DNA from: Theionarchaea archaeon
GTDB lineage: Archaea > Methanobacteriota_B > Thermococci > Methanofastidiosales > SZ-28-30
Length of the DNA stretch: 64,000 nt
Direction: 5' to 3'
Assembly (NCBI GenBank): GCA_018992685.1
Contig: JACVGT010000011.1
Span: forward strand, 64,001 to 128,000
Under the pieces are notes generated by a model. The model saw nothing but the letters and a program-made list of their open reading frames with translations. It was not told the DNA's origin and did not search any database. The position numbers and the translations under genes are program-made. Shown here one piece after another: positions 19,124-27,411 of this stretch (its first letter is position 1; each line of letters begins with the position of its first letter).

Positions 19124-19231
19124 TCATTGTCATGGTGGTTCACTCACTACAGAGTGCGTGGTCTCTCTGCCATGCACTCACCTTTTTCTGCTTGGCTTTC
19201 CATGAAGTAATTCGTGTACGGAGGAATTTGT

Positions 19232-19891
19232 ATGGCAGATCAAACCTTGGAGATAACCTACTGGGAATCCGCCGGAGAAGTCAACACGGATAACCTCCTC
19301 AAAATCGTCAGAGAATGCGCCCTCCAACGTGATATTCCAGTAATAGTAGCCTCAGAAACTGGAAAGAGTGCATTGAGAGCACTCCAAATATTCAAAGACA
19401 CATCAATTCGCATGGTGGTGGTCACCCATTTCCCCGCCACGACGTGGGGGCCCAAGGGGAATATTCCTATTGGGCTTTTGAGAAATGAATACACAGAAGC
19501 AAGGAAAACGCTCCTGGACCACAATATTACCATAGTCCAGGGCACAAGGCCTTTTGCTCCCCCTTCCCGATCCATTGAGTGGGGATATCCAACGCCCGAA
19601 GCTGTAATGGATAAGACACTTGAACTCTTCGGGGCGGGAACTAAAATCGCTATTGAAGCTGCAATCATGGCTACAGATTCTGGAGCGGTCACTGACGGAG
19701 AGGAAGTCCTCTCCTGTGCAGGAACGTTCAAGGGATTGGATTGCGCTCTCATAGTAAAGACTACCTACAGCATGAATGTCTTCAGTCAGTTTGAAGTGCG
19801 GGAAGTCCTTGCCAAGCCCCGATATAGAGTAACGCAGCTTCCTGAATACACCTTTGACCATTGGAAGGGTGATCTTGAGCAGTATTACTGA
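19232..19891 (+). CDS. Stand-alone pyruvate-kinase C-terminal-like domain protein
   Basis: VIVASETGKSA, FGAGTKIAIEAAIMATDSG and GLDCALIV motifs. Confidence 0.75.
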   Translation: MADQTLEITYWESAGEVNTDNLLKIVRECALQRDIPVIVASETGKSALRALQIFKDTSIRMVVVTHFPATTWGPKGNIPIGLLRNEYTEARKTLLDHNITIVQGTRPFAPPSRSIEWGYPTPEAVMDKTLELFGAGTKIAIEAAIMATDSGAVTDGEEVLSCAGTFKGLDCALIVKTTYSMNVFSQFEVREVLAKPRYRVTQLPEYTFDHWKGDLEQYY

Positions 19892-20151
19892 CTATTATTA
19901 ATCGGCGTGAATGAGGTATGTCAGTCTTCAATAAAAAAGAGAAAGGAGGATGATATGGCGCAATACTATTATTAATCAATAGTATATAAAGCTTTCGGTT
20001 CATGACTCATATTTCGTCCTGATCACTTCACTTCATAAGCACATTCATTCAACCATTGCACGAAGTGGGACCTTCTCCTATGGAAAAACTCCTGAAATCC
20101 CCTCTTATTTTTTTCATCATCCATTCTCATTATTACACGACAGTTTAAATA

Positions 20152-20167
20152 GAAACCTTTTTAAATA
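20152..20167 (+). promoter_or_regulatory. BRE/TATA promoter of the RiPP precursor
   Basis: GAAACCTTTTTAAATA about 45 nt upstream of the ATG; RBS AAGGAGGTG at 20196-20204. Confidence 0.6.
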
Positions 20168-20210
20168 ATCCATATCATAAGTAATAGATAAGCTAAAGGA
20201 GGTGTAACAA

Positions 20211-20351
20211 ATGATAAATGTGCCTATGGTATTTGAGGGTCCTGCCCTGCTGGCCAACACAATGGTTCCGTTAGGGCGGGGGACTAATGTCTGCTGCTAC
20301 AATGATACTGATGGAGACTACTACTGCTGCATCAAGACTGAAGTCCTATAA
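20211..20351 (+). CDS. Putative RiPP precursor peptide, 46 aa (MINVPMVFEGPALLANTMVPLGRGTNVCCYNDTDGDYYCCIKTEVL)
   Basis: Translated by hand; below the ORF-track cutoff. Strong RBS, own promoter and T-rich terminator, Cys/Asp/Tyr-rich C-terminal core, directly upstream of rSAM/SPASM and RRE genes. Confidence 0.85.
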   Translation: MINVPMVFEGPALLANTMVPLGRGTNVCCYNDTDGDYYCCIKTEVL

Positions 20352-20358
20352 AGAATTG

Positions 20359-20382
20359 TTTTTTCTCTTTTTTTGTCTTTTT
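20359..20382 (+). terminator. Oligo-T terminator after the precursor
   Basis: TTTTTTCTCTTTTTTTGTCTTTTT. Confidence 0.6.
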
Positions 20383-20591
20383 CCGATTTGGGAAATACGT
20401 TGTGAATGGGGAGGTTGTGCTAGTGTCATTCAAAAGTCGTCTATCTTGTCAGGGTGAGATTATACATTCATATGCAATCAGACGGTCATGTGATTGCCAT
20501 GGAAGCAGAATCAGAATCGTACCTTGTGTCATAAGAGTCCAGTGGTTCTCTTCGTATCCCTTTTGTCCCCTCTCCACAGAGACGTGGTAGC

Positions 20592-21680
20592 ATGCTGGCA
20601 AAAGTGGAATTGACGGCCCGCTGCAATTTGAACTGTATGCACTGCAGCGCATCCATTTATAGACCCTCTCCAGAATGGAAGACAAGCCAATTACTAGGGC
20701 TACTTGAACAGCTCATAGATAATGGATATGATAGCTTCGATCTCAAAGGGGGTGAACCGTTTATCCGTTCTGACATATTCGAGATATTGGATTTCCTGGA
20801 ACGACACGATGCTTCATTCTTTCTTTCCACCAATGGACTTCTTCTTGATGAAGAAAAGATACGCAGGGTGCTCTCCTATCAGAGGCTTTCGACCTTCACT
20901 GTCAGTCTTGACGGCGCAACGAAAGAGACACACGAGGCCATGAGAGGAAAGGGCACATTTCATCCAACTCTAGAAATCATTAGGAGGATCGCTGAAACAA
21001 GAGAAATGCTAGGTTCACAGATACGGTTTGGTCTCAACTATGCCCTGACAAAGGTCAACTACCAGGAAATCAAAGATGTCTTTCACCTTGCAGATGAGCT
21101 TGGATTCAGTGCAGTGTTTGTTCTCTGCCTGTCTCTTATCGGCAACGCTCTTGAACATAAGGGTGACCTGTTCTTGCTAGAAAGAGACGAGCTTGCTGCG
21201 CTGAAGGAAGGAGCCACTGTTCTGAGGAAGATAGATATTGCTCGTCAGATCAGAGGGCTGTCTCCACTCGAATTCAACGTTGAGTTGTTCCCCTATAAAT
21301 GGAAGTGCCGGCTGATGAAATGGTCAGGACATTACAAAGGTTTCATAACAAAGAACCAGTGTAGTGCTGGGGTCAGCGAAATATATGTCGGAGCCGACGG
21401 TACAATCTATCCGTGTGAAGGAGTGAGAGTCTTTCTGAAGATGGTGGAAGAGGAAGTTGGACATTACACACGACCAAGTGTTTGGAATTATACAATCAAT
21501 GAGGCGAGACAGGAGGAATCTTTCAAGAAGATTGTAGACTTCCTCCATGATTACGACCGATTGTTTGAGTCCATAGAGCCCTGCAACACATGCGAACACC
21601 TCAGAAAATGTACAATATGTCCCCTGTTTGCCCGGGCAGACGGAAAGGTGAATAGATGCACAGAAGAGGTGTTGATTTGA
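20592..21680 (+). CDS. Radical SAM/SPASM-domain peptide maturase 1
   Basis: CNLNCMHC, GGEP, STNG, SLDG; SPASM CSAG...GTIYPC and CNTC...CTICP...C. Confidence 0.9.
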   Translation: MLAKVELTARCNLNCMHCSASIYRPSPEWKTSQLLGLLEQLIDNGYDSFDLKGGEPFIRSDIFEILDFLERHDASFFLSTNGLLLDEEKIRRVLSYQRLSTFTVSLDGATKETHEAMRGKGTFHPTLEIIRRIAETREMLGSQIRFGLNYALTKVNYQEIKDVFHLADELGFSAVFVLCLSLIGNALEHKGDLFLLERDELAALKEGATVLRKIDIARQIRGLSPLEFNVELFPYKWKCRLMKWSGHYKGFITKNQCSAGVSEIYVGADGTIYPCEGVRVFLKMVEEEVGHYTRPSVWNYTINEARQEESFKKIVDFLHDYDRLFESIEPCNTCEHLRKCTICPLFARADGKVNRCTEEVLI

Positions 21681-21771
21681 TGTATTATTTCGAGATCTTT
21701 TCACGCGAGCAAAGACGTTGGATGAATGGAGCTGGAGTACTCTTCAGAAGATCTGGAATCTGGGTGACGTC

Positions 21772-22893
21772 ATGAAGGTGAGACTTGACATTACAACTCG
21801 GTGTAACCTCAATTGCCTCCATTGTGGAGCGACGGAATTCAAGACAGAGAGAGAATGGACAACTGAGGAAGCACTCCAAGCTTTTGAGAGCATGATTTCT
21901 TATGGTATAGACCACTTTGATTTTCTAGGCGGAGAGCCATTTATTCGCAAGGACATCCTGGAACTTTTCTCCCATTTGAGTGATCAAGGCGCGAGGATTC
22001 TCGTGGTTACCAATGGTCTACTCCTGAATGAGGAAATTATTGATTTTCTGGCCAATCTGGAAACCTTCTCCGGAATTTCTGTGAGCATTGATGGGGCATC
22101 AAGAGAAGTGCATGAGACTATTCGCGGCAAAAATACATTTGACCGTACTGTAGCGAATGTACAGGCCCTGTTATCCAGAAGAAATAGGAGAACCCCATCG
22201 TTCACTGTTGGCCTTACCTGTGTTTTGAATCGGATGAATGTTCTGGAATCTGGCGCAATGATGGAACTGGCGGATCAGATTGATGTGGATAGTGTTTCAT
22301 TCACACCTATGGGATGGATTGGCAATGCCAGGAAAAACAAAGATGACCTGTATATAGACCCCCAGGAAGAGTTCACCGCCTATGATAAGGCAATTCGCAG
22401 AGTAATCCAGATTAACAGAGTTCGTGCAATTAAGGGAAAACATCCTTTACGGTTTCCTATCGATAGCATACCTTTCACCTGGAAATATCACTTTGTGAAA
22501 AAGTATCCCTTGGTTCACCAGATAAGTGGTAAATTCAAGTGCTTGGCTGGAACGGGGACATTTCACGTGGACGGTTCAGGAGTGTTGTACCCCTGCGAGG
22601 CTGTCAAAATTCATAGAGCATCAATAGAGTCTGAGATCGGGGAGTACAGGAGCATGTCTCTGCCCGAGTACACCTTTGAAGAGATTGTCAAGAGTGGATT
22701 TTTCAAGAAAACTGTAGCATACATAAGAGATAGACATCATCTGACCGAGAACGTTGTACCATGTAAAGACTGCAAGTACGGTGATGGATGCAGCGTCTGC
22801 CCACTTCATGCGAGGTCTGAAGGAATCGTCCGTAATTGTGTGGAAGATACCATGAAGGGTGTAGTTGAAAGAGGTGATCTGCTTGAATCCTGA
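21772..22893 (+). CDS. Radical SAM/SPASM-domain peptide maturase 2 (paralog of maturase 1)
   Basis: CNLNCLHC, GGEP, VTNG, SIDG; SPASM CLAG...GVLYPC and CKDC...CSVCP...C; RBS GGTGA. Confidence 0.9.
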   Translation: MKVRLDITTRCNLNCLHCGATEFKTEREWTTEEALQAFESMISYGIDHFDFLGGEPFIRKDILELFSHLSDQGARILVVTNGLLLNEEIIDFLANLETFSGISVSIDGASREVHETIRGKNTFDRTVANVQALLSRRNRRTPSFTVGLTCVLNRMNVLESGAMMELADQIDVDSVSFTPMGWIGNARKNKDDLYIDPQEEFTAYDKAIRRVIQINRVRAIKGKHPLRFPIDSIPFTWKYHFVKKYPLVHQISGKFKCLAGTGTFHVDGSGVLYPCEAVKIHRASIESEIGEYRSMSLPEYTFEEIVKSGFFKKTVAYIRDRHHLTENVVPCKDCKYGDGCSVCPLHARSEGIVRNCVEDTMKGVVERGDLLES

Positions 22894-23497
22894 AACAACA
22901 TATGTACACTTAGGTGAAGACGTCTACTGGCACAGGGATGTTTCAAGAGTGTATATTTTCTCTGAGAAGACAGGAGAATCCATGCAAGGAAACATGACAG
23001 CAGGTAGAATCATGGAGCTCTCCGATGGAACCCGCTCTGTTGAAGAGATCGGGAAAACACTCCTGAGAGAGTTCACAGAAGGTCCGAGCTTTGAGGAGAT
23101 TCTAGAATTGGTCACTGACTTCCTCCTAGAATGTGAAAACAGAGGGTTTGTAGAACTACGAGCATCCCCGGCAGAGAAGCCTTCCTCCAGAGATCTCAAG
23201 GAATTTACACACGCTGATGTTGAAAGACTTCTCGAGGACAATGCTGTTCTGATCATAGATGAGACGGCATCTTTTGAGCTCAAAGAAGACGACAGTCTGA
23301 TTACGTACAGCGCCAGGGATGGCGAGTACCTGAAGCTCAGTAAAGAAGAGAAAGAAATCCTCACAATAATGCTGGAGGAGAAACCACTTCAGGAGGTACT
23401 CTCCGATTTTTCACAAGAGCACAAGGAAGGGTCCAGAGATATTCTCGTGGAATTCGCAACACAGTTGCTTAACAGGGGATTGGCAAGAATACAGTGA
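22883..23497 (+). CDS. Tandem PqqD/RiPP recognition element (RRE) protein
   Basis: GNMTAGRIMELSDGTRSVEEI...FLLECENRGFV is PqqD-like; second repeat LSKEEKEIL...FATQLLNRGLA. TTG start after RBS GAGGTGA. Confidence 0.8.
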   Translation: MNPETTYVHLGEDVYWHRDVSRVYIFSEKTGESMQGNMTAGRIMELSDGTRSVEEIGKTLLREFTEGPSFEEILELVTDFLLECENRGFVELRASPAEKPSSRDLKEFTHADVERLLEDNAVLIIDETASFELKEDDSLITYSARDGEYLKLSKEEKEILTIMLEEKPLQEVLSDFSQEHKEGSRDILVEFATQLLNRGLARIQ

Positions 23498-23634
23498 AGG
23501 AGTGTGTTGTGAACTGCTCTCTTCTCAAGTCTCGGTTATCACCTCCAAGTCTCGGAAAGAACAGATGGACCGGCTTAACCGAAAGATTCTTAAGATCTCA
23601 CACAACCCTTCTATAATGAGAAGGAGGCTGCCCC

Positions 23635-25455
23635 ATGATCCTGCAGAGCACAGTACCTTATAGAGAAGACATTCCTAATGCTGCATTAGGATATCTCAAA
23701 GGGTTTCTCACAGCAGAAGGCATTCCTGTCACTGCTCTTTACTGGAACCTCATTCTGGCCCGCAAGATTTCGGAATTTTACAGAGTACTGGCAGATTATT
23801 CGAAGGAGATGGGATTGTTTCATCCCGAGTCCGTTGGGCTATATATTTGCAGGAATCTGCTGACTGACCATTCTGATAATTCCAACCCAACAAAATTTGA
23901 TCTGATTTTCTCATCGATTTTTTCAAGAGAAGAGAGATCAGAGATGATCAGCTCAATACAGGATGAGATTTATCAGTATATCCAGAGGAACAGATTGCAT
24001 GAGGTACCTGTTGTTGGATTCACCTTGAAGACATATCAATGGATGCTGGGTTCCTACTTGATCCAGTGTTTCAAAGAGATGAACACTGATGTCACTATTG
24101 TGATAGGTGGGATTACTGATGAGTCCCAGGCAATCACCTACATGAAGATATTTGAATTGGCTGATTTTGCCATCTGGGGAGAGGGTGAATTCCCACTGGT
24201 GCACCTCGTGAGAACTCTGGAAGAAGGTACAGACGTTTCCGGAGTGCCTAACCTTGTATATCGGAGTGATAAGACCATTCTTTCGACAAAAGTATTTGGT
24301 GACTCGTACTCCCTCCTTGATTCATATCCTTTTGCAGATCACTCTGATTATTTTGAAACTGTGAGGAGGTTCGATCCTTTCAGGAAATACGTCACTATTC
24401 CCATATGGGGAAGCAGGGGCTGCCCATGGGACAGATGCAAATTCTGCACTTCGAGCGGAGGATACAAGTATCGCTTCCGCTCACCGGAAAACATTGTTGA
24501 AGAGATAGAGGTCCAGTCAAAAAAACACCGTGCGGACGACTTCATTTTCGTGGATACTGAACTTGCAGGCAACAAGAAGAGATTCTTGAGTCTTCTGAGA
24601 CTGCTCATGCAGAGTATCGTCAGTAGAAAAAGACCATATCGACTGAGTGGGGAAATATCTCCTCTTTCAATAGACAGAGAGACGGCGCAATACATAAAGC
24701 GTGCGGGATTCGTCAGCCTGCAGATTGGATTTGAGGCAGTCACTGACACACTCTTGAGAAAGATGCAGAAGAGGCAGATGATTGTTCACAACATTGAGAC
24801 ACTAAAGATCGGAGGTCAACATTCGCTACCTCTGAGAGGTCTCAACATCATTAGGGGAATTCCAACAGAAACCGCAGGCGATGTTCTGGAAAGTTGTATT
24901 AATTTGAAATTTTGGCGGTTCCTTCTATCTGATTTTCGTATCAGGCCCACTTTCTTCTTGCTGCACAAGAGATCTCTCTTTGACAGAGAGATGGCAGAAG
25001 AGGAAAAAGAGAAATGGAAGGCGGATTCACTCTGGGATGAGATTGTTCCAGCCCGTCTCGTGCCTGAATCTGATCGATTTGAATTCTCAAGTTTTCGAAG
25101 GGATCGGTTTGACCACCATCACCTGTGGGATATTTTTGAAGATCTCTTGATGTTCTATACAAAACAGAAAAGTTCCTATGAATGGATTGAATACCCAGAT
25201 GGTTCTCTTGTCGAAGAAAAAGGATTCAGAACCCACAAGCTCGCACTCAATCGAGAGCAGACAGATATTTTGGCTTTCTGCGATTCAGTAAAATCACTGT
25301 GTGATGTGGAAGAGAAATTCTCTCACTTGTGTGAGAATGAACTCTTTGAACTTTTAAATGGTCTGAAGACTTTGGGATTACTCTATTACGATAAGGAAAG
25401 CGGCAAGGCCATTTCGATTCTCGACACATCTAAAAGAAGAACTGAAGCGGGCTGA
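23635..25455 (+). CDS. B12-binding radical SAM enzyme (class B methyltransferase-like) with possible C-terminal RRE
   Basis: PNAALGYLK...VIGG...GEGE cobalamin domain; SRGCPWDRCKFC; QIGFE; C-terminal EQTDILAFCD...LNGLKTLGLLY. Confidence 0.85.
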   Translation: MILQSTVPYREDIPNAALGYLKGFLTAEGIPVTALYWNLILARKISEFYRVLADYSKEMGLFHPESVGLYICRNLLTDHSDNSNPTKFDLIFSSIFSREERSEMISSIQDEIYQYIQRNRLHEVPVVGFTLKTYQWMLGSYLIQCFKEMNTDVTIVIGGITDESQAITYMKIFELADFAIWGEGEFPLVHLVRTLEEGTDVSGVPNLVYRSDKTILSTKVFGDSYSLLDSYPFADHSDYFETVRRFDPFRKYVTIPIWGSRGCPWDRCKFCTSSGGYKYRFRSPENIVEEIEVQSKKHRADDFIFVDTELAGNKKRFLSLLRLLMQSIVSRKRPYRLSGEISPLSIDRETAQYIKRAGFVSLQIGFEAVTDTLLRKMQKRQMIVHNIETLKIGGQHSLPLRGLNIIRGIPTETAGDVLESCINLKFWRFLLSDFRIRPTFFLLHKRSLFDREMAEEEKEKWKADSLWDEIVPARLVPESDRFEFSSFRRDRFDHHHLWDIFEDLLMFYTKQKSSYEWIEYPDGSLVEEKGFRTHKLALNREQTDILAFCDSVKSLCDVEEKFSHLCENELFELLNGLKTLGLLYYDKESGKAISILDTSKRRTEAG

Positions 25456-25560
25456 TCCTGGCTGGCTGGAACCTTTGAGTCAGAATACACAGAGTCTGGA
25501 AAGAGAGTCTGGAGGCGCAGAAAGGAAAAGAGGTATGAAGTAGTACTGCGGTATTGAAAG

Positions 25561-27411
25561 CTATTCGGGTGCGATTTTTCTTATTTCTGCTGTTAGAATA
25601 TCGTTAATCAGCTTTCCATCCGCCTTCCCTCTTAGTTCTTTCATGCATACTCCCATCAGAGGAGCAACTGCTCGCATACCCTTCTCTTTTATTGTATCTC
25701 TGTTTTCTGCTACTATCTTCCGTACTATGTCTTCAACATCTTCTCGGGAAACTGGTTCCACTGTAATATCCTTGATCTTCTTTCCTTCTGCTATTTTTAG
25801 AAGAATATCATCCAGTGCTTCTTTTACTATTTGATGGTTGGCCAGTCTCTCGAGACAGAGTCTCAATTCATGTTCATCTTCAATGTATTTTCCCTCGTGT
25901 TCCAGTGCCTTGAGGATGTCAACCACTTTGATGAAGAGTGTTGGCTTGAGGTTCATGGTCTGGGTTTCTTCAAATACGTTCTCATATCCAGAATTGAGTA
26001 TTTTTTCTGCATGCTCCGGGGTCAGTGCGTACTCAGTGATGAACCGCTTGAGTTTTACATGAGGCAGCTCCGGCAGCTCTTTGTGGATACCTTCAATCCG
26101 TTCTCCTGAAATGACCAGTGAAGGGATATCTGTTTCTGGATACATTCGTTCTGCTCCCGGAAGAGGACGGGCATATCTGGTGTTCCCATCAGGGAGTGGT
26201 TCTCTGGTTTCTTCAGGTACTCCGGTTAGAGCCTCCTGAGCTCTGACTAACACTTCTTCAAGTGCTCTCCTTGACTTTTCTTCTTCATCAACTACCAGCA
26301 CAAAGGCGTCTTCTCCTTTCCTGTCCAATCTCTGACTGACTGCCGAAACCTCCTGGTCTGTAATTCCGTATGCGGGGAGTTCATCCGAATGGAAAATCCC
26401 TCCCACCCCCACCACTTTCGCCCTGTCAGAAAACTCGGTACCAAGCCGGCGACCTGGCTGTATCTCCTGTCCTACCAGGCCGCAGAATCCAGGAAGGATG
26501 ATACCAAGGACTCTTCCTCCTCTTTCCAGGATATTCTTGATGATTTTTGCCTTTGTGTCTGAGAAGCAGTCAGTCACATCTATAATTCCTTCATGTACAG
26601 AGGCTTTCCTCATTTCCAGCTCTCTCCGTATTTCTACAAGAGCAAGCTGCCTCTGCACTTCTCTTTCAATGTAAACAGCAATCAGATCCAGCTGCTGGAC
26701 ACCCTTGATCTCGCAGCGGGACCCCTCTTTTATAGAGATATTGAGGTCTTCCCTGATGGTGCCAAGTCCCCGCTTCACCTTGAGGGTGGCTCTCAGTACC
26801 TGTCCAATGGCAAGAGCAATATCTCTGGCTTCTTCTGGAGTTCTAATATCAGGATCTGTGGCCACTTCTATCAAGGGAATTCCCAGACGATCTAGCCTGT
26901 ATACCTTCTCTTCTCCCCTTGTTTCTATGATGCGGGCTGCATCTTCCTCTAGACAGACGGTAGGTATCCCATACTGCTTTCCTTCTACGTGCAGGACCCC
27001 ATGAGTGGCCAGGAGCAGTGTTCTTTGAAATCCAGAGGTGTTGGACCCATCGATGACAATCTTTCTCATGGTGTGCACTTCGTCTACAGGGCGTGCTCGT
27101 AGCAAGAGAGAAACTGCAAGACCTGTATCAACAGCTTCATTGCTGAGAGGGTGAGGGGGTTCTTCATCCAGTTCCACAAGGCATACGCTGTCATATCCCT
27201 GGTACACGAATGTTAGTCCCTTCTTGACCTCTGCTAAGGCTGCCTGATCGATTTTCCCTTTTTCGGAGAAAGATGGCCTTAATCTCCTTTTAATTTCGAA
27301 TTGAGGCTCATCTGTACGGAGTACTGTCGGACAGTGGCAGAAAAGCTTTCTCCCTGTATCCAACTGTTGATGGATTTCCAGCCCTACCTTCAATCCAATC
27401 TCCTCATACAT
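25561..27411 (-). CDS. gatE: Glu-tRNA(Gln) amidotransferase subunit E
   Basis: GLKVGLEIHQQL, MRKIVIDGSNTSGFQRT, LDRLGIPLIE, RMYPETD. Confidence 0.97.
   Translation of the reverse strand: MYEEIGLKVGLEIHQQLDTGRKLFCHCPTVLRTDEPQFEIKRRLRPSFSEKGKIDQAALAEVKKGLTFVYQGYDSVCLVELDEEPPHPLSNEAVDTGLAVSLLLRARPVDEVHTMRKIVIDGSNTSGFQRTLLLATHGVLHVEGKQYGIPTVCLEEDAARIIETRGEEKVYRLDRLGIPLIEVATDPDIRTPEEARDIALAIGQVLRATLKVKRGLGTIREDLNISIKEGSRCEIKGVQQLDLIAVYIEREVQRQLALVEIRRELEMRKASVHEGIIDVTDCFSDTKAKIIKNILERGGRVLGIILPGFCGLVGQEIQPGRRLGTEFSDRAKVVGVGGIFHSDELPAYGITDQEVSAVSQRLDRKGEDAFVLVVDEEEKSRRALEEVLVRAQEALTGVPEETREPLPDGNTRYARPLPGAERMYPETDIPSLVISGERIEGIHKELPELPHVKLKRFITEYALTPEHAEKILNSGYENVFEETQTMNLKPTLFIKVVDILKALEHEGKYIEDEHELRLCLERLANHQIVKEALDDILLKIAEGKKIKDITVEPVSREDVEDIVRKIVAENRDTIKEKGMRAVAPLMGVCMKELRGKADGKLINDILTAEIRKIAPE

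What the first reader, a model, noticed from the sequence alone, without database searches (positions are those of the whole stretch)
20152..25455. Candidate new archaeal RiPP cluster: precursor + two rSAM/SPASM + tandem RRE + B12-rSAM
Seen: promoter, strong RBS, 46-aa peptide and terminator, then two paralogous CxxxCxxC/SPASM enzymes, a double-PqqD protein overlapping the second enzyme, and a cobalamin-dependent rSAM, all on one strand between housekeeping genes. Known: rSAM/SPASM enzymes with RREs install thioether or C-C crosslinks, and class B rSAMs methylate unactivated carbons in RiPPs. Inference: a multiply crosslinked, C-methylated peptide from an anaerobic archaeon. I do not recognise it as a described class.
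Basis: partly seen in the sequence, partly recalled or inferred. Interest (0 to 1): 0.93.

Follow-up and report, generated by a model that had tools for sequence, protein, structure and literature searches.

The report
Archaeal radical-SAM modified-peptide gene cluster
A sediment archaeon carries a compact five-gene island that most likely turns a small cysteine-rich peptide into a cross-linked, possibly methylated product, using an enzyme set that no one has characterised.

Summary
Window 20211-25455 (+) encodes five genes:
- a 46-aa peptide with its own TATA-like boxes, strong ribosome-binding site and T-tract
- two paralogous radical SAM/SPASM enzymes that lack a peptide-binding domain
- a separate two-domain RRE (PqqD-like) protein
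- a 606-aa class-B-like radical SAM enzyme.

The decisive test passed. Orthologous enzyme sets in other metagenomes sit beside peptides with the same leader and the same CC-x9/10-CC core.

The five genes form a 5.6-kb insertion/deletion (20006-25573) relative to a syntenic genome of the same genus. The upstream ABC transporter and M29 peptidase are therefore not part of it.

The two SPASM enzymes belong to a tiny unnamed family. Their nearest structures are peptide maturases (SuiB, anSME, SkfB, CteB), not cofactor enzymes.

The class-B enzyme belongs to a large family expanded in Theionarchaea/Methanofastidiosia. That family is only distantly related to TIGR03975, and one of the three related metagenome contigs lacks it.

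Thioether formation on the four cysteines and C-methylation are inferences, not shown. I rate this a real, uncharacterised variant of a known kind (radical SAM RiPPs with a separate RRE). It is interesting but not categorically new.

The parts
20006..25573 (.). Accessory segment of 5.57 kb. It is present here and replaced by about 78 bp in the syntenic region of a same-genus genome (G001). It holds exactly the five genes of the cluster.
   Evidence: G001 has GatD, the Grx-like membrane protein and GatE directly followed by the M29 peptidase, ABC-2 permeases, ABC ATPase and GNAT protein (74-91% aa identity). blastn alignment stops at window 20005 and resumes at 25574.
20144..20167 (+). Two TATA-box-like octamers (TTTAAATA at 20144-20151 and 20160-20167), 44-67 nt upstream of the peptide start. 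Putative archaeal promoter.
   Evidence: 2 of the 4 occurrences in the 64-kb window; 1.25 expected per window. Promoter function is inferred.
20198..20204 (+). Shine-Dalgarno sequence GGAGGTG, 6 nt before the ATG of the peptide.
   Evidence: one of two such sites in the window.
20211..20351 (+). Precursor peptide, 46 aa. The leader is roughly residues 1-24/27. The core has two vicinal Cys pairs (C28 C29 ... C39 C40; CC-x9-CC).
   Evidence: Homologous peptides lie next to orthologous enzymes. Invariant in 5 sequences: M1, F8, P11, A15, L21, G22, C28, C29, G35, Y37, C39, C40. No Pfam or NCBIfam family.
20359..20382 (+). T-rich tract (runs of 6, 7 and 5 T), 8 nt after the peptide stop codon. Putative archaeal terminator or attenuator between the precursor and the enzyme genes.
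   Evidence: read directly. Function is inferred.
20592..21680 (+). rSAM1: radical SAM/SPASM peptide maturase, 362 aa, with no N-terminal RRE domain.
   Evidence: AF2 model pLDDT 95.5. VIA Z 26.9 to SuiB (chain 107-439), 25.2 to anSME, 24.9 to SkfB, 23.3 to CteB. CX3CX2C plus seven SPASM Cys, plus C239 that rSAM2 lacks.
21772..22893 (+). rSAM2: paralogous radical SAM/SPASM enzyme, 373 aa from ATG 21772 (ORF open from TTG 21718), 35% identical to rSAM1.
   Evidence: (P0017).
22883..23497 (+). Separate two-domain RRE protein, 204 aa from TTG 22883. Domain 1 (about residues 1-95) is PqqD-type. Domain 2 (about 105-204) is an RRE-like winged helix.
   Evidence: Domain 1: PF05402 33.6 bits; Z 11.8 to TbiB1, 10.4 to PqqD. 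Domain 2: no Pfam hit; Z 8.3 to the second N-terminal domain of ThcOx, 8.0 to NisB, 7.8 to MibB, 7.7 to MccB.
23635..25455 (+). Class-B-like (cobalamin-type) radical SAM enzyme, 606 aa, a distant relative of TIGR03975. Cluster motif CX4CX2C at C263/C268/C271.
   Evidence: TIGR03975 156.3 bits (cut-off 281.85), aligned end to end (12-587 against 12-598 of 606). Pfam B12-binding only 17.9 bits.

Best explanation
The segment is a self-contained accessory gene cluster for a ribosomally made, post-translationally modified peptide (RiPP). The host is an anaerobic sediment archaeon of the Theionarchaea/Methanofastidiosia group.

Shown:
- The gene set and its conservation as a unit.
- Its status as an insertion/deletion.
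- A conserved family of precursor peptides.
- The folds and families of the proteins.

Inferred mechanism:
1. The 46-aa precursor is transcribed from its own promoter and mostly terminated at the T-tract. Read-through, or a downstream start, supplies the enzymes.
2. The separate two-domain RRE protein binds the leader, probably through its PqqD-type first domain. It presents the core to rSAM1 and rSAM2, which have no RRE of their own and may act as a heteromeric pair.
3. Each enzyme cleaves SAM to a 5'-deoxyadenosyl radical and abstracts a hydrogen from a core residue. A cysteine sulfur held at an auxiliary Fe-S cluster then closes a thioether (sactionine or ranthionine type). Up to four links could form from the CC...CC motif.
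4. The class-B radical SAM enzyme then adds one or more methyl groups to unactivated carbons.
5. Leader removal and export rely on genes outside the cluster.

My odds:
- It is a RiPP cluster: about 0.9.
- The SPASM enzymes act on the cysteines to make thioethers: about 0.5.
- The class-B enzyme acts on this same peptide: about 0.6.
- If it does, the reaction is C-methylation: about 0.6.
For: Precursor:
- Two TATA-like boxes, a strong ribosome-binding site and a T-tract.
- Homologous peptides with the same leader and CC-x9/10-CC core lie beside orthologous rSAM1-rSAM2-RRE sets. In L043/L044 there are two tandem copies downstream of the RRE gene, not upstream as here, so linkage is kept despite rearrangement.
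- P0166 and P0167 were the only other proteins found by the peptide profile.

Unit character:
- The five genes are exactly the 5.57 kb missing from the syntenic site of G001.

Enzymes:
- rSAM1 and rSAM2 carry intact CX3CX2C and seven-Cys SPASM motifs.
- The rSAM1 model (pLDDT 95.5) is closest to SuiB, anSME, SkfB, CteB and ChlB (Z 22-27). It aligns to SuiB, SkfB and CteB only after their N-terminal RRE domains.
- By sequence, the best solved relatives are the thioether formers SkfB (50 bits) and CteB (38 bits).

RRE protein:
- Pfam PqqD.
- Two strand-plus-three-helix domains in the model (pLDDT 86.6).
- Domain 1: Z 11.8 to TbiB1 and 10.4 to PqqD. Domain 2: Z about 8 to the RRE regions of ThcOx, NisB, MibB and MccB.
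- Both halves are conserved in 13 homologues at 51-63% identity.

Thioether idea:
- All four Cys are invariant in 5 of 5 precursors.
- Precedent for two radical SAM enzymes acting as one complex on a sactipeptide: TrnC/TrnD (PMC12093266, abstract read).
- Precedent for archaeal SPASM thioether formation: CrpC (PMC13692751, abstract and section 8 read).

Class-B enzyme:
- Best family TIGR03975, 'RiPP maturation radical SAM C-methyltransferase', aligned end to end.
- It lies inside the same inserted segment.
- In this genome 3 of the 4 paralogues, like the cluster's own copy, lie beside other SPASM radical SAM genes; Cys-rich small ORFs were found at two of those loci (C7, C10) and none at C13. 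The fourth paralogue is on a 3.4-kb contig.
- A family member also lies next to the related cluster in L042.

Selection:
- Among the strain-variant differences that the tool displayed, rSAM1 has 6 synonymous to 5 non-synonymous and rSAM2 has 8 to 4.
Against: - No modification has been observed. No run on record as RNA was among the 15 listed.
- Homology does not fix the chemistry. The top NCBIfam scores mix a heme enzyme (AhbD 102 bits), a C-C cross-linker (WgkB 95), an unknown (ScmE 90) and a sactisynthase (StsB 88), all far below their cut-offs. The top structural match, SuiB, makes a C-C bond.
- Gly35 and Tyr37 are as invariant as the cysteines, so tyrosine chemistry is possible.
- In L043, rSAM2 lacks the last ~50 residues, which hold five SPASM cysteines. 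Two active thioether synthases are therefore not universal in the family.
- The class-B enzyme is not found in the DNA held for the L043/L044 contigs (2.5 kb upstream and about 5 kb downstream).
- The L042 copy is no closer to the window's enzyme (53%) than the window genome's own paralogue on C7 (52%).
- Among the differences displayed, the class-B enzyme shows 2 synonymous to 10 non-synonymous (small numbers, 40 of 73 differences shown).
- Pfam B12-binding is below its cut-off.
- No protease or exporter is conserved with the cluster.
Confidence: 0.6

Rival explanations
1. It is a RiPP cluster, but the SPASM enzymes do not use the cysteines. They make carbon-carbon or carbon-oxygen cross-links on the conserved Tyr or other core residues, as in streptide, PQQ, darobactin or triceptides. 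The four cysteines would then serve as metal ligands or disulfides in the product.
For: - Tyr37 and Gly35 are invariant alongside the Cys.
- The best structural neighbour is SuiB, a Lys-Trp C-C cross-linker (Z 26.9).
- WgkB (C-C cross-linker) scores as high as any thioether maturase (95 bits; also the only hit of orthologue P0015).
- PqqE is also a good structural match (Z 20.6).
Against: - By sequence, the two best solved relatives are thioether formers (SkfB, CteB).
- Four invariant cysteines in a 20-residue core beside SPASM enzymes is the usual signature of sacti- and ranthipeptides (general knowledge).
- A strictly anaerobic host makes structural disulfides less likely (inference).
Confidence: 0.2
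2. The class-B radical SAM enzyme is a neighbour, not a tailoring enzyme of this peptide. It belongs to a large, mobile archaeal family that works on another substrate, or on several peptides. The functional unit is only precursor + rSAM1 + rSAM2 + RRE.
For: - The L043/L044 contigs have the four-part core without it in the DNA held.
- In L042 it is convergent and preceded by an unrelated 46-aa Cys-rich ORF.
- Identities do not show co-inheritance with the cluster (53% to L042 against 52% to the paralogue on C7).
- The family is very large (251 proteins at E<=1e-30 among the 8000 candidates scored), whereas the RRE/rSAM1 family is tiny.
- Excess of non-synonymous differences among those displayed.
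Against: - It lies inside the same 5.57-kb inserted segment, co-directional and 137 nt after the RRE gene, with its own GGAGG site.
- In this genome 3 of the 4 paralogues, like the cluster's own copy, sit next to SPASM radical SAM genes; Cys-rich small ORFs were found at two of those loci and none at C13.
- No other small ORF with a good ribosome-binding site lies next to it in the window.
Confidence: 0.3
3. The product is not a secreted antimicrobial or signal. It is an intracellular peptide-derived cofactor or metal-binding peptide, following PQQ or mycofactocin logic, made by radical SAM enzyme plus PqqD-like chaperone.
For: - No exporter, immunity gene or leader protease is conserved with the cluster.
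- The chaperone is PqqD-like.
- PqqE and MftC models give moderate scores (65-84 bits).
- Two vicinal Cys pairs could bind a metal (inference).
Against: - The cluster is accessory. It is absent from the syntenic site of G001. The RRE profile found it in 1 of 133 genomes of the class, G000 itself. That pattern fits a dispensable specialised metabolite better than a cofactor.
- No further cofactor-finishing enzymes (PqqB/C, MftD/E/F analogues) are present.
- Scores are far below the PqqE and MftC cut-offs.
Confidence: 0.15
4. It is not a peptide pathway at all. The small ORF is spurious and the radical SAM enzymes serve cofactor biosynthesis (Ahb/NirJ-type heme or other).
For: AhbD is nominally the top NCBIfam hit of rSAM1 (102 bits).
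Against: - 102 bits against a cut-off of 500. None of the 10 nearest homologues tested reaches any named family's cut-off.
- The small ORF is conserved with the enzymes in independent contigs even though its position differs.
- A dedicated RRE protein is present.
Confidence: 0.03

Closest known systems
RaS-RiPP type operons with a separate RRE protein (StsA/StsB/StsC streptosactin; WgkA/B/C)
   Same: A short precursor, a radical SAM/SPASM maturase of about 360 aa with no fused RRE, and a separate small RRE protein that binds the leader. StsB and WgkB are among the best NCBIfam hits (88 and 95 bits). That StsC is an RRE binding the StsA leader comes from passages of PMC12710340.
   Different: - Scores are far below the family cut-offs (625, 650).
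- There are two paralogous maturases.
- The RRE protein has two domains.
- A class-B radical SAM enzyme is added.
- The host is an archaeon.
- The precursor family is unrelated.
Thuricin CD pathway (TrnC/TrnD)
   Same: Two radical SAM/SPASM enzymes are encoded together and act on Cys-containing precursors. In thuricin CD they form a tight complex, and only one needs radical SAM activity (PMC12093266, abstract). This fits the L043 variant, in which rSAM2 has lost its SPASM cysteines and two precursors are present.
   Different: - I know of no separate RRE protein in the Trn pathway (recalled, not checked).
- Here there is one precursor in the window.
- A complex between rSAM1 and rSAM2 is untested.
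- No sequence-level family membership was shown.
Ranthipeptides/SCIFF (CteA/CteB) and sactipeptides (SkfB, AlbA)
   Same: About 45-aa precursors with a Cys-rich C-terminal core. SPASM or twitch maturases. SkfB and CteB are the best solved relatives by sequence and are strong structural matches (Z 24.9 and 23.3).
   Different: - Those maturases carry a fused N-terminal RRE; the model aligns only after it.
- The peptide hits no NCBIfam or Pfam precursor family.
- The core has four Cys as two vicinal pairs rather than spaced single Cys.
- The type of link is unknown.
SynChlorMet cassette (ScmD PqqD-like, ScmE and ScmF radical SAM/SPASM); NCBIfam families, uncharacterised as far as I recall
   Same: The same architecture of two radical SAM/SPASM paralogues plus a PqqD-like protein. 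ScmE is the top hit of rSAM2 (95.8 bits), and ScmD is a weak hit of the RRE protein (19.7 bits).
   Different: All scores are far below the equivalog cut-offs (400, 400, 100), so it is not a member.
TIGR03975 'RiPP maturation radical SAM C-methyltransferase' (the proteusin methyltransferases PoyB/PoyC are, from recall, of this kind)
   Same: About 600 aa, aligned end to end to the model (12-587 against 12-598 of 606). 28 of 28 family members tested hit it best. It sits in a RiPP cluster.
   Different: - 156 bits against a cut-off of 281.85.
- It belongs to an archaeal clade with a CX4CX2C motif.
- Its substrate and reaction are untested.
- No solved relative by sequence.
ThcOx (cyanobactin oxidase) N-terminal double RRE-like domains
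   Same: It is the top Foldseek match of the whole two-domain model (E 9.4e-4). The model's residues 5-204 align to ThcOx 3-200, and domain 2 aligns to ThcOx 104-200 with Z 8.3.
   Different: In ThcOx the domains are fused to an oxidase. Here they form a free-standing protein serving radical SAM enzymes. Sequence identity is 8-10%.
CrpA/CrpC of Methanococcus voltae
   Same: An archaeal SPASM radical SAM enzyme that installs thioethers on a Cys-rich ribosomal substrate (PMC13692751, abstract and section 8).
   Different: - CrpC has a fused RRE and belongs to TIGR04463.
- Its substrate is a large repeat protein.
- That survey excluded proteins under 100 aa, so it could not have found this peptide.

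Membership tests
Radical SAM/SPASM peptide maturases (RiPP type) | CX3CX2C radical SAM cluster motif | tested here: met
   C11/C15/C18 in rSAM1 and rSAM2. Invariant in 45 aligned homologues.
Radical SAM/SPASM peptide maturases (RiPP type) | C-terminal seven-Cys SPASM motif and fold | tested here: met
   - Cys 257, 275, 331, 334, 340, 343 and 356 in both enzymes.
- The model aligns through residue ~358 to SuiB, anSME and CteB (Z 23-27).
- Pfam SPASM itself is below its cut-off (19.0 against 21.5; no hit in rSAM2).
Radical SAM/SPASM peptide maturases (RiPP type) | A precursor peptide encoded nearby that co-varies with the enzymes | tested here: met
Radical SAM/SPASM peptide maturases (RiPP type) | An RRE, fused or separate | tested here: met
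   Separate protein; PF05402 33.6 bits; structure matches.
Sactipeptides / ranthipeptides | Cys sulfur to alpha- or beta/gamma-carbon thioether links in the product | not testable with these tools
   Needs mass spectrometry or NMR of the modified peptide.
Sactipeptides / ranthipeptides | Maturase or precursor reaches a named family model (AlbA, StsB, other maturases; precursor models) | tested here: not met
   StsB 88 and 86 bits against a cut-off of 625. The peptide has 0 NCBIfam and 0 Pfam families.
SynChlorMet cassette (ScmD/E/F) | Equivalog scores for ScmE, ScmF and ScmD | tested here: not met
   ScmE 95.8 and 90.3 (cut-off 400); ScmF 70.4 and 56.3 (cut-off 400); ScmD 19.7 (cut-off 100).
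Cofactor radical SAM enzymes (AhbD, NirJ, PqqE, MftC) | Equivalog score | tested here: not met
   AhbD 102 (cut-off 500), NirJ 80 (515), PqqE 65-79 (381), MftC 73-84 (265). The 10 nearest homologues also fail every cut-off.
PqqD/RRE domain | PF05402 above its gathering score | tested here: met
   Domain 1: 33.6 bits against 23.4. Domain 2: no hit at E<=10.
PqqD/RRE domain | Winged-helix fold of three strands plus three helices, in both halves | tested here: inconclusive
   - Domain 1 is clear (Z 11.8 to TbiB1, rmsd 2.0 over 84 residues).
- Domain 2 has Z 7.7-8.3 to the RRE regions of ThcOx, NisB, MibB and MccB, but similar Z to unrelated winged helices (YcfD, NO66).
- Leader binding is untested.
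TIGR03975 RiPP maturation radical SAM C-methyltransferase | Score at or above the curated cut-off (281.85) | tested here: not met
   156.3 bits. The best E among 28 relatives is 1.6e-55.
Class B (cobalamin) radical SAM enzymes | N-terminal B12-binding domain | tested here: inconclusive
   - PF02310 17.9 bits against 32.1.
- The L042 relative reaches 26.4 bits.
- Precomputed PF02310 hits are listed for many of the listed family members.
- NCBIfam class-B families align from residue ~110.
Class B (cobalamin) radical SAM enzymes | Methyl transfer to an unactivated carbon | not testable with these tools
   Needs an enzyme assay or co-expression.

The most novel reading that the evidence does not exclude
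The free-standing two-domain RRE protein is a bivalent adaptor. It assembles two RRE-less SPASM enzymes into one maturase complex on a single leader. The product would be a new RiPP class native to Archaea, in which two vicinal cysteine pairs (CC...CC) become four thioethers that staple a 9-10-residue loop, further C-methylated by a lineage-specific cobalamin radical SAM enzyme. The same lineage would then hold a large untapped set of such peptides: at least four more clusters in this genome, and more than 250 relatives of the class-B enzyme in public data.
Probability: 0.25. Interest if true: 0.75.

Novelty: new variant of a known kind. Interest (0 to 1): 0.55.

Why it matters
In the papers I read, the archaeal RiPPs described as characterised are lanthipeptides (passages of PMC12144867) and the large-protein Crp system (PMC13692751). 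I found no characterised small radical SAM RiPP from Archaea.

This cluster is a clean, minimal, experimentally tractable case:
- Five genes in 5.6 kb, bounded by a natural insertion/deletion.
- A conserved precursor family whose natural variants can guide mutagenesis.

It could give the following:
- new cross-link chemistry on vicinal cysteines
- a test of how one RRE protein serves two maturases
- an entry into a large family of class-B radical SAM enzymes, specific to this archaeal group, with an unusual CX4CX2C motif.

If the chemistry turns out to be ordinary sactionine or ranthionine formation, the finding is still a useful new family, but not a surprise.

Tried and rejected
Tried, with no usable result:
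- Complex prediction of the RRE protein with the precursor gave no verdict: score 0.57, but 0.53 with an unrelated protein replacing the RRE. It counts neither for nor against binding.
- The look-up of sequencing runs listed no RNA holder. The 15 runs listed are DNA runs from 6 studies, labelled marine sediment, sediment, mangrove, estuary or plain metagenome, plus four with a coded organism label.
- Read laying laid contigs only. 33 of 73 differences were not listed, and none listed falls in the peptide gene, so I could not test selection on the small ORF.
- The genome-contig scan with the RRE profile matched 169 pattern stretches, none confirmed.
- The genome search found no orthologue of the RRE protein in 60 relatives. 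rSAM1 had matches at E<=1e-20 in 4 of 61 genomes, the best outside this cluster at 29% identity. The RRE profile hit only G000 among 133 genomes of the class. Several of these genomes are incomplete, so this means 'not found in those searched'.
- hhalign of the class-B family against the RRE family was not significant (probability 0.17). I dropped the idea that the class-B enzyme has a recognisable C-terminal RRE.
- Pfam on the C-terminal 117 aa of the class-B enzyme gave no family.
- The 46-aa ORF of L042 (3311-3451) has no homologue in G000 or in the loci held.

Considered and rejected:
- That the upstream ABC-2 transporter and M29 aminopeptidase are the exporter and leader peptidase. They are conserved next to GatE in G001, which lacks the cluster.
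- That the PK_C-like ORF 19214-19891 belongs to the cluster. It is a separate insertion/deletion and is not present near L042, L043 or L044.
- Membership in AhbD/NirJ, PqqE, MftC or the SynChlorMet cassette (scores).

The contigs of about ten of the 13 RRE homologues therefore could not be inspected.
- Supplements of papers are closed. The supplementary cluster lists of PMC13692751 and PMC12144867 might include this cluster; I could not check.

Literature searches for this family found nothing specific.

Full report
WHAT IS THERE

On the + strand of window 20144-25455 lie five genes.
- A 46-aa ORF at 20211-20351: MINVPMVFEGPALLANTMVPLGRGTNVCCYNDTDGDYYCCIKTEVL.
- Two radical SAM enzymes: rSAM1 at 20592-21680 (362 aa) and rSAM2 (ORF from 21718; probable ATG at 21772; ends 22893).
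- A PqqD-like protein (ORF from 22865; probable TTG start at 22883 behind GAGGTGA; ends 23497).
- A 606-aa radical SAM enzyme at 23635-25455.

The small ORF has its own expression signals.
- Two of the four TTTAAATA octamers in the 64-kb window lie at 20144 and 20160.
- One of only two GGAGGTG-N4-9-ATG sites is at 20198.
- Three T-runs at 20359-20382 follow the stop codon.
Each signal alone is weak statistically. Their co-location is what counts.

WHO THE HOST IS

- The window is contig C3:64001-128000 of a 3.03-Mb assembly in 45 contigs, 91% complete.
- Homologues of the cluster proteins are labelled by NCBI as 'Candidatus Methanofastidiosia archaeon' and 'Theionarchaea archaeon'.
- No MCR alpha subunit was found in the assembly. 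I therefore do not call it a methanogen.
- Near-identical DNA occurs in DNA runs of 6 studies, labelled marine sediment, sediment, mangrove, estuary or plain metagenome.

THE ENZYMES

rSAM1 and rSAM2:
- They are 35% identical.
- Each has CX3CX2C at C11/C15/C18 and seven SPASM-type cysteines at identical positions: 257, 275, 331, 334, 340, 343, 356. rSAM1 has an extra conserved C239.
- Pfam gives Radical_SAM (E 4.5e-21 and 2.5e-25) but SPASM only below its cut-off.
- No NCBIfam model comes near its cut-off: AhbD 102/500, WgkB 95/650, ScmE 96/400, StsB 88/625.
- An exhaustive HMMER search of 1.84 billion cluster representatives found 35,441 radical SAM relatives, but only 16 at E<=1e-30. The top four are an orthologue at 52% (P0015), a fragment at 57% (P0016), rSAM2 itself (P0017) and one protein at 30% (P0018). 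After these the scores fall to 160 bits or less.
- None of ten near homologues reaches a named family. The family is tiny and unnamed.
- An AlphaFold model of rSAM1 (pLDDT 95.5), compared with 48,161 solved chains, is closest to SuiB (Z 26.9), anSME (25.2), SkfB (24.9), CteB (23.3) and ChlB (22.4). PqqE follows at 20.6.
- The alignment to SuiB, SkfB and CteB begins after their residues ~94-107, that is, after their fused RRE domains. So rSAM1 is a peptide-maturase-type SPASM enzyme that lacks its own RRE.
- By sequence, the best solved relatives are SkfB (50 bits) and CteB (38 bits).

THE RRE PROTEIN

- Pfam PqqD matches residues 31-96 (33.6 bits). The second half has no Pfam match.
- Thirteen homologues (51-63% identity) conserve both halves.
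- The AlphaFold model (pLDDT 86.6) shows two strand-plus-three-helix domains joined by a low-confidence linker (residues 101-104).
- Domain 1 matches lasso-peptide RREs and PqqD: TbiB1 Z 11.8, rmsd 2.0 over 84 residues; PqqD Z 10.4.
- Domain 2 matches the second N-terminal domain of ThcOx (Z 8.3) and the RRE regions of NisB, MibB and MccB (Z 7.7-8.0). It also matches unrelated winged helices at similar Z.
- The whole model's best Foldseek hit is ThcOx.
- 'Tandem RRE' is therefore well supported for domain 1 and reasonably supported for domain 2.

THE PRECURSOR TEST

A scan of metagenome contigs with the RRE profile gave three loci.
- L043 holds rSAM1-rSAM2-RRE. These are followed, not preceded, by two tandem small ORFs, each behind GGAGGTGA: MIDTPMSFVKPLLFGGSGAGSLASLGYGYCCNGKYIFGLVNCCNDEPPPE and MMDTPMSFVKPLLFGGSGASPLASLGFDYCCNGKYMYGTGTCCNDKPPPQV.
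- L044 is the same arrangement from another contig.
- These peptides share with the window peptide the N-terminal M-x-x-x-P-M-x-F-x-x-P motif, an L-G before the core, and two vicinal cysteine pairs 9-10 residues apart.
- A profile of the three peptides, searched in 5.8 billion proteins, returned four proteins, all family members. Two were new: P0166, MMDTPMSFVKPLLFGGSGAGPLASLGFDYCCNGKYMYGYGTCCNDKPPQE, and P0167, which from its likely start reads MMDAQLSFAKPLFLGGGGAGPLASLGWETCCNGKYMYGYSTCCNDKPPPEV.
- P0166 comes from an NCBI contig of the same length (10,912) as the contig of RRE homologue P0011. That is consistent with, but does not prove, the same locus.
- In five sequences the invariant positions are M1, F8, P11, A15, L21, G22, C28, C29, G35, Y37, C39 and C40.
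The peptide is therefore a real member of a precursor family that is kept with the enzymes despite rearrangement.

BOUNDARIES

- A same-genus genome (G001) has the same neighbourhood (74-91% protein identity): GatD, Grx-like membrane protein, GatE, then directly the M29 peptidase, two ABC-2 permeases, the ABC ATPase and the GNAT protein.
- Nucleotide alignment stops at window 20005 and resumes at 25574.
- The five genes are thus exactly a 5.57-kb insertion/deletion.
- This removes the transporter and the peptidase from the cluster. It argues that all five genes, the class-B enzyme included, travel or are lost as one unit in this genome.
- The PK_C-like ORF (19214-19891) is a separate insertion/deletion.

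THE CLASS-B ENZYME

- It aligns end to end with TIGR03975 ('RiPP maturation radical SAM C-methyltransferase') at 156 bits, below the cut-off of 282. It matches other class-B families from residue ~110.
- All 28 relatives tested behave the same way.
- Pfam B12-binding is weak (17.9 bits).
- The cluster motif is CX4CX2C and is invariant in the family.
- The family is large: 251 proteins at E<=1e-30 among the 8000 candidates scored, the best 120 at 43-58% identity.
- This genome has four paralogues: C7 52%, C13 49%, C10 49%, C39 35%.
  - Three of them lie beside other SPASM radical SAM genes; Cys-rich small ORFs with strong ribosome-binding sites were found at two of these loci (C7, C10) and none at C13.
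  - The fourth is on a 3.4-kb contig.
- Against a fixed partnership with this peptide:
  - L043/L044 have no such enzyme in the DNA held.
  - In L042 it is convergent and preceded by an unrelated 46-aa ORF.
  - The L042 copy is no closer to the window's (53%) than the C7 paralogue is (52%).

MECHANISM

What is shown: genes, folds, conservation and boundaries.

What is inferred: the RRE protein binds the leader and serves both RRE-less enzymes. The enzymes cross-link the core, most likely through thioethers from the four invariant cysteines. The class-B enzyme then methylates.
- Thioether chemistry is favoured by the invariant cysteines, by the best sequence relatives (SkfB, CteB), and by precedents: TrnC/TrnD acting as a complex (PMC12093266, abstract) and CrpC in a methanogen (PMC13692751, abstract and section 8).
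- It is not fixed by homology. SuiB and WgkB (C-C cross-linkers) match equally well, and Tyr37 and Gly35 are also invariant.
- In L043, rSAM2 has lost its last ~50 residues, which hold five SPASM cysteines. This fits a model in which one paralogue can be mainly a partner or scaffold.

COMPARISON AND NOVELTY

The cluster works like RaS-RiPP, sacti- or ranthipeptide systems with a separate RRE. It fails every tested family threshold (StsB, WgkB, ScmD/E/F, TIGR03975, AhbD, NirJ, PqqE, MftC).

Its distinctive points:
- the CC...CC precursor family
- two paralogous RRE-less maturases with a two-domain RRE protein
- a class-B enzyme specific to this archaeal group.

Archaeal radical SAM RiPP clusters are known from genome mining, and the paper treats them as still unexplored (passages of PMC12144867). 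I found no description of this family (supplements closed).

I rate it a new variant of a known kind, interest 0.55.

Noticed in passing
G000 contigs C7:54555-60695; C10:13956-23286; C10:29291-37407; C13:52535-57062; C39:938-2779: The same genome holds at least four more radical SAM clusters that look like RiPP clusters.
- Each has SPASM enzymes and B12-type radical SAM genes.
- On C7, C13 and C10:13956-23286 the B12-type gene is a paralogue of the 606-aa class-B enzyme. C10:29291-37407 has shorter B12-type radical SAM genes of about 445-497 aa.
- Some have an 89-91-aa PqqD-like ORF.
- Small ORFs behind strong ribosome-binding sites lie at C7:54555-54665 and C10:13956-14156 (both Cys-rich) and at C10:29291-29377, which has no cysteine; none was found at C13.
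   Followed up: partly
window 20423-20590 (+): A 55-aa ORF (62 aa from GTG 20402) behind GGAGGT fills the gap between the precursor's T-tract and rSAM1, and ends 1 nt before the rSAM1 ATG. It has five Cys. I found no counterpart upstream of rSAM1 in L043. Whether it is coding is unknown.
   Followed up: partly
window 19895-20005: A 111-nt intergenic element is 92% identical to G001, more conserved than the flanking DNA (84% and 77%). It contains a hairpin-capable inverted repeat and a GGAGG-ATG mini-ORF of 6 codons. There is no Rfam hit in the window apart from two tRNAs.
   Followed up: no
window 19188-19894: The PK_C-like ORF (19214-19891; Pfam PK_C 23.2 bits, below its cut-off) is a second, separate insertion/deletion relative to G001.
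   Followed up: partly
L043:3480-4466: In this related cluster, rSAM2 ends about 50 residues early and lacks five of the seven SPASM cysteines. The RRE gene starts 8 nt later, so this is a real deletion and not a frame error.
   Followed up: yes
L042:3311-3451 (+): A 46-aa Cys/Trp-rich ORF behind GGAGGTGA lies between the RRE gene and a convergent class-B radical SAM gene. Its leader is unrelated to the CC...CC family. No homologue was found in G000 or in the loci held.
   Followed up: partly
window 23635-25455 and family alignment A6: The class-B family has an invariant CX4CX2C motif instead of CX3CX2C. Among the strain-variant differences displayed, this gene has 2 synonymous to 10 non-synonymous, against 14 to 9 for the two SPASM genes together (small numbers).
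   Followed up: partly
database proteins P0019-P0027 and others: Many of the next-best relatives of rSAM1 are very long proteins (760-1444 aa) with 2-4 separate radical SAM matches, that is, fused multi-radical-SAM proteins.
   Followed up: no
G000 whole genome: No MCR alpha subunit (PF02249) was found in this 91%-complete assembly. The same search hit both methanogens among the 14 control genomes. The host may not be a methanogen.
   Followed up: partly
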